A stretch of 64,000 bases of DNA. Origin: Escherichia coli (GTDB lineage: Bacteria; Pseudomonadota; Gammaproteobacteria; Enterobacterales; Enterobacteriaceae). A program made the position numbers. The stretch lies in assembly GCF_044324785.1 (NCBI RefSeq), contig NZ_CP172127.1. One strand, given 5' to 3'. Below, piece after piece: positions 35,001 through 38,000 of the stretch; the first letter of the stretch is position 1; each line of letters begins with the position of its first letter.

Positions 35001-38000
35001 TGGCATGATGCGCGGTCGTGCGCTGGCAGGGGCAAGTGGTGATCGGGAAACGCAAATATTTTGTACGAACCTGATGGCGGAACTGGTGTCCATCGCAGGT
35101 GAATACTGGCTGAGTGATCAAATCCCAGCAGAATTTTATGGCAAAGCGGCGCGACTGCAGTTAGTCGAAAACGCTTTGACCGTTCAACCGTTAAATTGAT
35201 CCCTTTTTAACAAGGAATTTCTATGGCACGCATTATTGTTGTTACTTCGGGCAAAGGGGGTGTTGGTAAGACAACCTCCAGCGCGGCCATCGCCACTGGT
35301 TTGGCCCAGAAGGGAAAGAAAACTGTCGTGATAGATTTTGATATCGGCCTGCGTAATCTCGACCTGATTATGGGTTGTGAACGTCGGGTCGTTTACGATT
35401 TCGTCAACGTCATTCAGGGCGATGCAACGCTAAATCAGGCGTTAATTAAAGATAAGCGTACTGAAAATCTCTATATTCTTCCGGCATCGCAAACTCGCGA
35501 TAAAGATGCCCTCACCCGTGAAGGGGTCGCCAAAGTTCTTGATGATCTGAAAGCGATGGACTTTGAATTTATTGTTTGCGACTCCCCGGCAGGGATTGAG
35601 ACCGGTGCGCTAATGGCACTCTATTTTGCAGACGAAGCCATTATTACCACCAACCCGGAAGTCTCCTCAGTACGCGACTCTGACCGTATTTTAGGCATTC
35701 TGGCGTCGAAATCACGCCGCGCAGAAAATGGCGAAGAGCCTATTAAAGAGCACCTGCTGTTAACGCGCTATAACCCAGGCCGCGTAAGCAGAGGTGACAT
35801 GCTGAGCATGGAAGATGTGCTGGAGATCCTGCGCATCAAACTCGTCGGTGTGATCCCTGAGGATCAATCAGTATTGCGCGCCTCTAACCAGGGTGAACCG
35901 GTCATTCTCGACATTAACGCCGATGCGGGTAAAGCCTACGCAGATACCGTAGAACGTCTGTTGGGAGAAGAACGTCCTTTCCGCTTCATTGAAGAAGAGA
36001 AGAAAGGCTTCCTCAAACGCTTGTTCGGAGGATAAGTTATGGCATTACTCGATTTCTTTCTCTCGCGGAAGAAAAACACGGCCAACATTGCAAAAGAACG
36101 GCTGCAGATTATTGTTGCTGAACGCCGTCGCAGCGATGCAGAACCGCACTATCTGCCGCAGTTGCGTAAAGATATTCTTGAGGTCATTTGTAAATACGTA
36201 CAAATTGATCCTGAGATGGTAACCGTACAGCTTGAGCAAAAAGATGGCGATATTTCTATTCTTGAGCTGAACGTGACCTTACCGGAAGCAGAAGAGCTGA
36301 AATAAGCCCGCTGTAAAAGCGCATTTATCTTCAAGGCAGAGTCATCTCTGCCTTGAGTTTTTCATCCCCCTCATCCACGTTTGATAAGAGCGGCGAGTAT
36401 TCTTGCTGATGCTACTCATTGCTTCCCCCCCTTTACACCTTAATGCCGTTCCCCCCACACAGAACAAAATGTTTATACCTGGCTGAGTAAATAACCTTAT
36501 TGTTAGTATGGGTATGCTGGGAGATGATAACCCCGCAATTTCATTATTCATTGTTCTCCCATAGGATGAGGTTTCCCGCCGTAACTGGCGGGCTTTTTTT
36601 GCCGCAGAATTTTCCCTTTTAACACCCTGTAAACGAAAACTGCGCCGAAGCGCAGTTTAATCGTTGATAGTCAGAACGACCAGTTCGCACCAGCCACCGC
36701 GTTCCACGGGGATTCCACACCGGCACCATGGCTATACCCCACCCCGAGATGCCCGCTTAACGAACTGCTGAATGAGGCTTTAATACCTGCCTGATATATT
36801 CCACGTCTGCCCGACAAATCATTGACAAAATTACCGTCATTATTCACTTTCACCCGGTTATCATCGACAAATTCTTTGCGCACAGCCATTTTCAGCCACG
36901 GCTCAACTTCCATGCCGTTCCCCAGACGCATGTTGTAACTCAGCGTTGCACCCAGTTCACGATATATACTGCGGGTATCGACTGATTTCGATTCCATGCC
37001 ATTGGATAAATGATAGTAGCGTCTAAGTGACCTTAGCTCTGCTGCAACATCATCCCGCAGGCACCAGACCAGGGGATTGATCCTGAAGAGGCAGCGCAAG
37101 TGTATTGTGTTCACCGCTCATCAAAGACATCATGATGAAATAATGATATCCCGCATAAGAAAGAGGCATTTTTTAAACGCAGTGCGCTGAAATGTAGTTG
37201 GATAAAAAAATCACTCTTTTCTGATAATACTGTTGTACGCTTATTTTTCGACAATGAGGCCGTCGACAAAATAAAATGACTAATGTAATCGTTGCTGATG
37301 AATATCTTCTGCTCACATAAAAATCACACAATAATATTGATAAATCAGATTATCTTACCTTTACAACATTGTATTAACAGTCAATGACACTTCTTGAATA
37401 AAAATATTGTCAATCAATGAGTTATTTCTCATTTGAGATTATTCTTATTCCCGTAAAAAACATAATTCCTATCATCACAGTCACGCTCATTTTGAATTAT
37501 CTGAATAATAGCGAGCGTTCTTTAGTTAAGCAGATCTTAATTGAAGACGAAATTATTGTGTGTGCAACTTACTTAATACCGGACATCTAAGTTGAAGAAA
37601 AAAATACTTGCCTTCGGGCTTATCTCAGCATTGTTCTGCTCCACGCCAGCGATGGCGGATATGAATCGCACCACGAAAGGTGCATTGCTAGGCGCAGGCG
37701 TTGGTTTACTTACTGGCAATGGTGTTAATGGCGTACTGAAAGGTGCAGCTGTTGGCGCTGGTGTTGGTGCAGTAACAGAAAAAGGCCGCGACGGTAAAAA
37801 TGCGCGTAAAGGTGCAAAAGTGGGTGCCGCCGTTGGTGCTGTCACTGGCGTTCTGACCGGCAATGGCCTCGAAGGGGCGATTAAAGGTGCCGTGATTGGC
37901 GGTACGGGTGGTGCAATTCTGGGTAAAATGAAATAAGGAATGATGATGAAAAAATTTGCTTTACTGGCGGGTCTGTTTGTTTTCGCACCAATGACCTGGG

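What the first reader, a model, noticed from the sequence alone, without database searches (positions are those of the whole stretch)
36671..37114. Orphan autotransporter barrel fragment (ycgI) downstream of minE
The minus-strand ORF ends in the autotransporter terminal motif (...GANWSF) but has no signal peptide or passenger domain, indicating a decayed second autotransporter adjacent to the intact one. The locus therefore shows a history of autotransporter gain and erosion.
Basis: partly seen in the sequence, partly recalled or inferred. Interest (0 to 1): 0.25.

Follow-up and report, generated by a model that had tools for sequence, protein, structure and literature searches.

The report
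Deletion stump of an autotransporter gene (ycgI)
This is the well-known E. coli pseudogene ycgI: the last 114 codons of an adhesin-type autotransporter gene that one old deletion cut away, still intact at the same site in perhaps a tenth of E. coli strains. It is an ordinary decaying gene remnant.

Summary
The minus-strand ORF 36671..37114 exists and ends in ...AVAGANWSF. Its residues 34-147 match the last 40% of the autotransporter beta-barrel domain (Pfam E=6e-11; TIGR01414 E=2e-21). It corresponds to the annotated K-12 pseudogene ycgI (b4521).

- **Origin.** The window is colinear, at 98.5-98.9% identity, with E. coli strains that carry an intact AIDA-type autotransporter (1120 or 1558 aa) between ymgJ and minE. 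The only difference is a single deletion, running from 29 nt upstream of the start codon to the codon before Tyr-1007/1445.
- **Spread.** The same junction (37015/37016) occurs in 4596 of 5426 complete E. coli genomes. Up to 713 genomes keep a longer allele.
- **ORF start.** The first 33 codons are read-through of the old 5' leader. No other remnant exists in the window.
- **Decay.** The stump evolves like non-coding DNA: 4.7% divergence from K-12, against 0.7-1.2% for minCDE. Three of six compared lineages carry independent frameshifts.
- **Relatives.** The lost gene was a paralogue of ypjA/ehaD, not of the neighbouring intact ycgH. In one strain the intact copy and ypjA show gene conversion.

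The feature is already known and of low interest.

The parts
36671..37015 (-). The ycgI remnant proper: the last 114 codons plus the TGA stop of an AIDA-type (type Va) autotransporter. This is about the last five of twelve barrel strands and ends in the aromatic C-terminus ...ANWSF.
   Evidence: Pfam and TIGR01414 matches. tblastn to residues 1445-1558 of the intact allele at 98% identity. Equivalent to K-12 b4521. The strand count comes from a low-confidence model, pLDDT 53.
37015..37016 (-). The deletion junction. It joins position -30 of the ancestral gene's leader to the codon for Tyr-1445 (1558-aa allele) or Tyr-1007 (1120-aa allele). Microhomology is at most 1 nt.
   Evidence: blastn colinearity with L005 and L014 breaks only here. 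A 200-bp probe across the junction matched 4596 of 5426 genomes at >=80% coverage. In truncated genomes, hits to the intact-allele probe stop exactly at this point.
37016..37114 (-). The 5' extension of the ORF (33 codons from a GTG). It is read-through of former untranslated leader and does not derive from autotransporter coding sequence.
   Evidence: It aligns to leader DNA upstream of the ATG in the intact alleles. Called ORF starts differ between strains, giving 136-, 108- and 147-aa versions.
37016..37365 (-). The retained upstream/leader region of the lost gene. It is paralogous (88%) to the region upstream of ypjA. It contains the ymgJ-like ORF (37173..37331) and a 39-aa ORF (37050..37169).
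   Evidence: blastn to the L006 ypjA upstream region, 88.3% over 351 bp. Annotations. ORF comparison.
36661..36670 (-). The ten bases after the stop codon that are still shared with ypjA. Similarity to ypjA ends here.
   Evidence: Alignment A2. The blastn hit to the ypjA locus runs 355 bp.
36631..36658 (-). A 9-bp hairpin with a UUCG loop followed by a U-rich stretch. It is the likely intrinsic terminator of the former autotransporter gene.
   Evidence: Fold of -18.7 kcal/mol, z=-3.7, with 0 of 200 shuffles as stable. It is conserved behind the intact alleles, where colinearity is 98.9%. The simple terminator scan did not list it.

Best explanation
The feature is a dead gene stump.

**Ancestral gene.** An ancestral E. 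coli carried, between ymgJ and minE, a classical type Va autotransporter adhesin of the AIDA-I/Ag43-like kind. It had a signal peptide, AIDA repeats, a pertactin-like autochaperone, a Pro-rich linker and a 12-strand barrel. It was a paralogue of ypjA/ehaD.

**The deletion.** One illegitimate deletion, with at most 1 nt of microhomology, removed everything from 29 nt upstream of the start codon to about 60% of the way through the barrel domain. That is 3.0 or 4.4 kb, depending on which extant allele is compared. The deletion fused the old leader to the last 114 codons.

**Why the stump cannot work.** It has lost its ribosome-binding site, start codon, signal peptide, passenger and seven of twelve strands. 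It can be neither exported nor folded into a barrel.

**Current state.** It now drifts neutrally, and different lineages have acquired different frameshifts. The deletion allele reached about 85% of sequenced E. coli, while the intact allele still segregates.

**Shown versus inferred.** Shown here: the homology, the exact junction, the shared junction across genomes, intact alleles at the same site, the neutral-like divergence and the frameshifts. Inferred: that the deletion happened once, that the intact allele is ancestral, and that the stump is not expressed as anything useful.
For: - Domain matches to only the last 40% of the barrel.
- Orthology to K-12 ycgI b4521, with the same flanks.
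- The window is colinear at 98.5-98.9% with strain NRZ14408 on both sides of a single gap that holds an intact 1120-aa autotransporter. The endpoints are the same relative to the 1558-aa allele of R32_14_1F and 2013C-4282.
- The junction probe is present in 4596 of 5426 complete genomes. The whole truncated arrangement is present in 4470. A longer 3' end next to minE is present in 713.
- Intact alleles have the full AIDA + Pertactin + Autotransporter architecture.
- There is no other remnant in the window.
- Three of six truncated alleles carry frameshifts at three different sites.
- Divergence between the window and K-12 is 4.7% in the stump. It is 3.4-6.9% in flanking non-coding DNA and 0.7-1.2% in minC, minD and minE.
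- A published survey reports that structure prediction of YcgI gives a deformed or broken barrel (PMC7383365).
Against: - In this window, and in strains N3 and O111 FWSEC0005, the 114 codons are still in frame, and an ORF of 147 aa is open.
- The ancestral leader, and possibly its promoter, is retained, so transcription cannot be excluded.
- Promoter-like sites there are no more frequent than in shuffled sequence: 4 found versus 3.4 expected.
- No outgroup species could be examined, so the ancestral state is inferred from within E. coli only (one search was unproductive).
- Not all 713 'long' alleles are intact. NJS001 has an IS1203-truncated 753-bp remnant.
Confidence: 0.9

Rival explanations
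1. The min locus never held a complete gene originally. On this view, a 355-bp copy of the ypjA 3' end, plus a copy of its leader, was inserted there. The full-length genes seen at this site in some strains were then built later by gene conversion from ypjA, using the leader and the stump as homology arms.
For: The stump is 96-99% identical to the ypjA 3' end, and both of its flanks have ypjA counterparts. Gene conversion between the two loci does occur. In strain R32_14_1F the last ~3.6 kb of the two genes are 99-100% identical, while ypjA orthologues from R32 and K-12 differ by 3-7% in the same windows.
Against: The intact min-locus alleles have leaders and 5' coding regions that are only 55-85% identical to ypjA. 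The 1120-aa allele has a passenger with a different repeat organisation, aligning to ypjA at 38-81%. These regions therefore cannot have come from ypjA. A leader abutting a 3' end at -30 is exactly what an internal deletion leaves. It would need two separate coincident insertions otherwise.
Confidence: 0.05
2. The ORF is a live gene encoding a small protein. One possibility is a cytoplasmic or periplasmic barrel fragment that interferes with BAM or with other autotransporters, or that affects cell division, as hinted by its linkage to minCDE in a filamentation screen.
For: The ORF is open in this window. The region from the ycgI homologue to minCDE was enriched in a UTI89 filamentation screen, and the authors noted that the neighbours of minCDE 'might affect cell division too' (PMC6206680).
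Against: The same authors offer linkage to minC as the alternative explanation. No start codon is conserved. There are frameshifts in K-12, Ecol_732 and GABEEC10. Divergence is neutral-like. There is no signal peptide and no RBS from the ancestral gene.
Confidence: 0.03
3. The stump matters as DNA rather than as a gene. It forms a 355-bp inverted repeat with ypjA, about 1.5 Mb away, and could mediate chromosomal inversions or serve as a conversion partner for the ypjA barrel.
For: ycgI is on the + strand in K-12. That ypjA lies on the opposite strand about 1.55 Mb away is my recollection of the K-12 map and was not checked here. Identity between the two copies is 96-99%. Variable sites in the 345 bp are shared in a mosaic pattern between the two loci. 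Conversion is demonstrated for the intact allele.
Against: A chimeric probe for the predicted inversion product (ycgI leader + stump + ypjA downstream flank) was found in 0 of 5426 complete genomes. Loci that first looked like inversions proved to be intact alleles in the normal context. Conversion involving the stump itself was not demonstrated.
Confidence: 0.1

Closest known systems
ycgI (b4521) pseudogene of E. coli K-12 MG1655
   Same: Same position (ymgJ - ycgI - minE, convergent with minE), the same deletion junction, and 95% DNA identity. This is the same locus, so the finding is an orthologue of an already annotated pseudogene.
   Different: K-12 has an extra 1-bp deletion that frameshifts the remnant, whereas the window copy is still in frame. 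The window copy (shared with strain N3) has two private amino-acid changes, KAAV>KMAV and GVNWSF>GANWSF.
YpjA/EhaD, an AIDA-I-type autotransporter adhesin of E. coli associated with biofilm formation (PMC9289746)
   Same: The 114 residues are 97% identical to the YpjA C-terminus, and the DNA is 96-99% identical. The leaders are also related, at 88%. Intact alleles at the ycgI site are named YpjA/EhaD or 'AIDA repeat-containing protein' by PGAP and are 92% identical in protein to YpjA in strain R32_14_1F.
   Different: It sits at a different chromosomal locus, so it is a paralogue, not ypjA itself. The leader and first ~1.2 kb of intact min-locus alleles are only 55-85% identical to ypjA. The window copy lacks 92% of the gene.
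Intact min-locus autotransporter alleles (WP_001590060.1, 1120 aa, strain NRZ14408; WP_422112159.1 and WP_106907792.1, 1558 aa)
   Same: Identical genomic site and flanks. The stump matches their last 114 codons at 97-98% DNA identity.
   Different: They retain the RBS, signal peptide, AIDA repeats, pertactin/autochaperone region and the complete barrel. The window lacks 3047 or 4361 bp relative to them.
ycgH (ECIAI39_1904 family autotransporter), the intact 882-aa neighbour at 38331..40979
   Same: Also a type Va autotransporter with a PF03797 barrel, lying 1.2 kb away on the same strand.
   Different: Only 29% identity in the translocator region and no tblastn hit at the ycgI site. It is not the source or a tandem duplicate of ycgI.

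Membership tests
Classical (type Va) autotransporter, functional member | C-terminal beta-barrel translocator domain (PF03797 / TIGR01414) present | tested here: met
   PF03797 E=5.7e-11 and TIGR01414 E=2.1e-21, both above their curated cut-offs. The match is partial only.
Classical (type Va) autotransporter, functional member | Complete 12-strand barrel (full-length coverage of the domain model) | tested here: not met
   Only profile positions 152-254 of 255 (Pfam) and 319-432 of 432 (TIGR01414) are covered. This is about the last 5 strands in a low-confidence model of the intact translocator.
Classical (type Va) autotransporter, functional member | N-terminal Sec signal peptide | tested here: not met
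   The ancestral N-terminus MNRISRYYFHRSVLSLLIAAMIYAPPGMTA and its RBS lie inside the deleted segment. The ORF's own N-terminus is translated leader DNA. No signal-peptide predictor was available.
Classical (type Va) autotransporter, functional member | Passenger domain upstream of the barrel | tested here: not met
   tblastn of full-length alleles against the whole window finds only residues 1445-1558.
Classical (type Va) autotransporter, functional member | C-terminal aromatic residue / beta-signal (…W-S-F) | tested here: met
   The ORF ends ...AGANWSF.
ycgI pseudogene locus of E. coli (b4521) | Same flanking genes and the same deletion junction as K-12 ycgI | tested here: met
   Colinear alignment with K-12 over 1.3 kb. 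K-12 annotation. The junction is shared by 4596 genomes.
YpjA/EhaD-like AIDA-type adhesin subfamily (for the ancestral gene) | Close sequence relationship to YpjA, and AIDA-repeat + pertactin + barrel architecture in intact alleles at this locus | tested here: met
   97% aa identity over the remnant. Intact alleles have PF16168 + PF03212 + PF03797. Protein identity to YpjA is 92% for the R32 allele and 81% over the C-terminal 1000 aa for the NRZ allele.
YpjA/EhaD-like AIDA-type adhesin subfamily (for the ancestral gene) | Adhesion or biofilm function of the intact min-locus allele | not testable with these tools
   No experimental paper on the min-locus allele was found. The function is inferred from YpjA (PMC9289746).

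The most novel reading that the evidence does not exclude
The stump is not merely inert. Because it keeps the ancestral leader and a 355-bp tract 96-99% identical to ypjA in inverted orientation, it might act as a silent conversion partner that exchanges sequence with the ypjA barrel. Alternatively, it might be transcribed from the retained leader to give a regulatory RNA or a barrel fragment that influences the neighbouring min operon. The mosaic sharing of variable sites between the two loci and the proven conversion between the intact allele and ypjA do not exclude the first version.
Probability: 0.07. Interest if true: 0.4.

Novelty: already known. Interest (0 to 1): 0.15.

Why it matters
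It matters little in itself. ycgI is already annotated as a pseudogene, and autotransporter decay is common in E. coli.

The useful outputs are practical.

- **Annotation.** The true extent of the remnant is 36671..37015. Everything upstream in the ORF is leader. The small ORFs called there (ymgJ, a 39-aa 'hypothetical/ATPase') sit in a duplicated leader.
- **Population genetics.** The locus is a clean presence/absence polymorphism: one junction in about 85% of genomes, and an intact adhesin gene in roughly 7-13%. It could serve as a marker. It also means some E. coli, including O55:H7 DEC5D, encode an extra, unstudied YpjA-like adhesin.
- **Typing.** The near-identical 3' ends of this locus and ypjA undergo gene conversion and break short-read assemblies, which is relevant to adhesin typing tools.

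Tried and rejected
1. **Large inversion.** The first hits joining a long ypjA-like barrel to minE, at coordinates resembling the ypjA position, suggested a 1.5-Mb inversion between ycgI and ypjA. Inspection showed normal min-locus context with an intact gene and a separate ypjA locus. A chimeric probe for the reciprocal product matched 0 of 5426 genomes. Rejected.

2. **Outgroup context.** There was no information on other Escherichia species.

3. **The ~50%-identical relatives** P0042, P0044 and P0051 were followed up. P0042 sits between narP and yejM, which I recognise as the yejO autotransporter locus and which is unrelated to this site. P0051 is on a short metagenome contig without informative context.

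4. **Literature.** Searches for ycgI, ypjA, EhaD and autotransporter found no study of ycgI's origin or of the intact min-locus allele.

5. **Promoter scan of the leader.** Four promoter-like sites were found against 3.4 expected by chance. This is uninformative.

6. **Structure prediction** of the intact translocator from a six-sequence alignment gave only pLDDT 53. It was used only for a rough strand count, and no fold search was attempted.

7. **Microhomology-mediated deletion** through the similar motifs TATTCATTT and TATCATTT near the two endpoints. The junction sequence does not fit recombination within them, and at most 1 nt is shared.

Full report
**What is in the sequence.** The window is E. 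coli chromosome around minCDE, best matched at 99.3% over 8.3 kb to ST2747- and 042-like strains.

- On the minus strand an ORF runs from a GTG at 37114 to a TGA at 36673..36671. It is 147 aa and ends ...SPWNAVAGANWSF.
- minE lies at 36039..36305 on the plus strand, so the two genes converge with a 365-bp spacer.
- Residues 34-125 match Pfam PF03797 (autotransporter beta-domain) at E=5.7e-11, on profile positions 152-254 of 255.
- Residues 34-147 match TIGR01414 at E=2.1e-21, on positions 319-432 of 432.

**It is the known pseudogene ycgI.**

- In K-12 MG1655 the colinear segment between ymgJ and minE is annotated as pseudogene ycgI, b4521.
- In other RefSeq genomes PGAP annotates it as 'autotransporter outer membrane beta-barrel domain-containing protein; incomplete; missing N-terminus'.
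- The three-way alignment of the window, K-12 and strain N3 is colinear across 1.3 kb. K-12 carries an extra 1-bp deletion inside the remnant.

**Where the rest of the gene went.**

- A protein search returned 256- and 241-aa partial barrels that extend the remnant upstream. One of them lies on a contig next to minE.
- Searching that junction in 5426 complete E. coli genomes found 713 with a longer barrel next to minE.
- I first suspected a chromosomal inversion with ypjA. The annotated regions show something simpler.
- Strains R32_14_1F and 2013C-4282 carry an intact 1558-aa 'AIDA repeat-containing protein' between ymgG/ymgI and minE. R32_14_1F also has a separate ypjA locus.
- Strain NRZ14408 has the window's gene order (ymgF, intact ycgH, ymgD, ymgG, ymgI, ymgJ), followed by an intact 1120-aa autotransporter and then minE.
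- The window aligns to NRZ14408 at 98.5% (window 41200..37015) and 98.9% (37015..33001), with one gap of 3047 bp. Against the 1558-aa alleles the gap is 4361 bp, with the same two endpoints.
- The upstream endpoint is 29 nt before the ATG. The sequence is GACGCTACT | CAGTATTCATTTTTCAGAGGATGAAATTTATG, so the RBS is lost.
- The downstream endpoint is just before the codon for Tyr in ...NPEYHLSNGM. The sequence is CCCGAAT | ATCATTTATCC.
- At most one base is shared between the endpoints. This is a single illegitimate deletion.

Only 36671..37015 is autotransporter sequence.

tblastn of the 1558-aa allele, YpjA and YcgH against the entire window finds no further fragment in any frame.

**How widespread the junction is.**

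- A 200-bp probe centred on the junction is covered at >=80% in 4596 of 5426 genomes, at 94-99.5% identity.
- The whole 1.3-kb truncated arrangement is found in 4470 genomes.
- Hits of truncated genomes to a probe spanning the intact allele's start stop exactly at the breakpoint.
- The genomes include K-12, O111, ST131-type, SMS-3-5 and others. One junction is therefore shared across the species, which argues for a single event.
- The long alleles number at most 713.
- Sampling the ranked list suggests roughly 350-470 genomes with an NRZ-type intact 5' end, including O55:H7 DEC5D.
- About 19-26 genomes have the R32-type 5' end.
- Not all long alleles are intact. NJS001 has an independent IS1203 truncation that leaves a 753-bp remnant.

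**What the lost gene was.**

- The intact alleles have AIDA repeats (PF16168), a pertactin-type region (PF03212), a Pro-rich linker and a complete PF03797 barrel.
- Their nearest solved relatives are the Ag43, AIDA-family and TibA passengers and the BrkA barrel.
- The remnant's DNA is 96-99% identical to the 3' end of ypjA/ehaD. Similarity ends ten bases after the stop codon.
- The retained leader (window ~37016..37365) is 88% identical to the region upstream of ypjA.
- The gene was therefore a paralogue of ypjA.
- It was not a duplicate of the neighbouring intact ycgH. The translocator regions of the two are only 29% identical.
- YpjA is grouped with the biofilm-forming self-associating autotransporters in a recent review (PMC9289746).

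**Is the stump alive?** The evidence says no.

- It lacks the ancestral RBS, start codon, signal peptide and passenger.
- It also lacks about seven of twelve strands. A low-confidence model (pLDDT 53) of the intact translocator places five strands in the retained part.
- Among six truncated alleles, K-12 has a 1-bp deletion. Ecol_732 has two. GABEEC10 has one that it shares with Ecol_732. Only the window, N3 and an O111 strain remain in frame.
- ORFs called on this locus in public data start at different places, giving 136, 108 and 147 aa.
- Between the window and K-12 the stump differs at 4.7% of sites. This is like the flanking leader (3.4%) and spacer (6.9%). It is four to seven times the rate of minC, minD and minE (0.7-1.2%).
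- A review of E. coli outer-membrane proteins notes that modelling YcgI yields a deformed or broken barrel (PMC7383365).
- A filamentation screen in UTI89 found enrichment from the ycgI homologue through minCDE. The authors themselves offer linkage to minC as the explanation (PMC6206680).

**An extra observation: gene conversion with ypjA.**

- In R32_14_1F the min-locus gene and ypjA are 99-100% identical over their last ~3.6 kb, but only 82-85% identical in the leader and 5' end.
- The ypjA orthologues of R32 and K-12 differ by 3-7% in the same 3' windows.
- Paralogues that are more alike within a genome than orthologues are between genomes indicate recent conversion.
- This explains why the stump looks so much like ypjA.
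- Within the 345 bp, variable sites are shared in a mosaic pattern between the two loci.
- I could not show that the stump itself still takes part in conversion.
- The idea that the inverted 355-bp repeat drives inversions is rejected. The predicted recombinant junction is absent from all 5426 genomes.

**Verdict.** It is a known pseudogene, now with its exact origin defined. Interest is low.

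Noticed in passing
L005 2700-7790 versus L006 2277-7364 (strain R32_14_1F): The intact min-locus autotransporter and ypjA of the same genome are 99-100% identical over the last ~3.6 kb, but only 55-85% identical in the leader and first ~1.2 kb. The ypjA orthologues of R32 and K-12 are only 93-97% identical in the 3' part. This is the signature of recent inter-locus gene conversion.
   Followed up: partly
window 38331..40979 (-); L005 and L015 1414-2143: The neighbouring autotransporter ycgH (882 aa, ECIAI39_1904 family) is intact in the window, in N3 and in NRZ14408. It is entirely absent in R32_14_1F and 2013C-4282, where ymgF abuts ymgD. From memory, it is a pseudogene in K-12. Both autotransporters at this locus are therefore presence/absence polymorphisms, in different combinations.
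   Followed up: partly
window 37050..37169 (-) and 37173..37331 (-): The small ORFs annotated here in other strains (a 39-aa 'hypothetical protein/ATPase' and ymgJ) lie in the retained leader. The 39-aa ORF, at least, has a paralogous copy upstream of ypjA. It differs from its ypjA-leader copy mostly by amino-acid-changing substitutions, and its stop codon moves in R32. ymgJ is frameshifted in N3 and Ecol_732. They look like chance ORFs in a conserved leader rather than genes.
   Followed up: partly
L019 1-1145 (strain NJS001); L020 (strain 155): An independent truncation of a long allele by IS1203 leaves a 753-bp barrel remnant next to minE in NJS001. Strain 155 has a remnant of the same length beside IS1203 at another locus, apparently ypjA. 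The identical 753-bp length at two loci is curious and was not examined.
   Followed up: no
window 36306..36670: The minE-ycgI spacer is the most divergent segment versus K-12, at 6.9% with 8 gapped alignment columns including a 7-bp indel. It holds two plus-strand terminator-like hairpins (36330..36357 and 36575..36592) and a 69-aa minus-strand ORF (36342..36551). That ORF may be the unnamed 'conserved gene' C1358 mentioned for UTI89; this was not checked. No Rfam family matches here.
   Followed up: no
window 36888..36890 and 36687: The window and strain N3 share three adjacent substitutions (GGC>AAT, giving KAAV>KMAV). They also share a T>C change that turns the conserved C-terminal GVNWSF into GANWSF. 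Both are absent from all other alleles compared. The cluster suggests a multi-nucleotide mutation.
   Followed up: no
window 29878..29956 (-): The sRNA C0299 (Rfam RF00119, 111.9 bits) is the only Rfam family reaching its gathering score in the 64-kb window.
   Followed up: no
L007 and L008: Two public MAG contigs labelled Collinsella sp. and uncultured Clostridiales encode this E. coli remnant at 94-96% identity. They are almost certainly mis-binned E. coli DNA.
   Followed up: no
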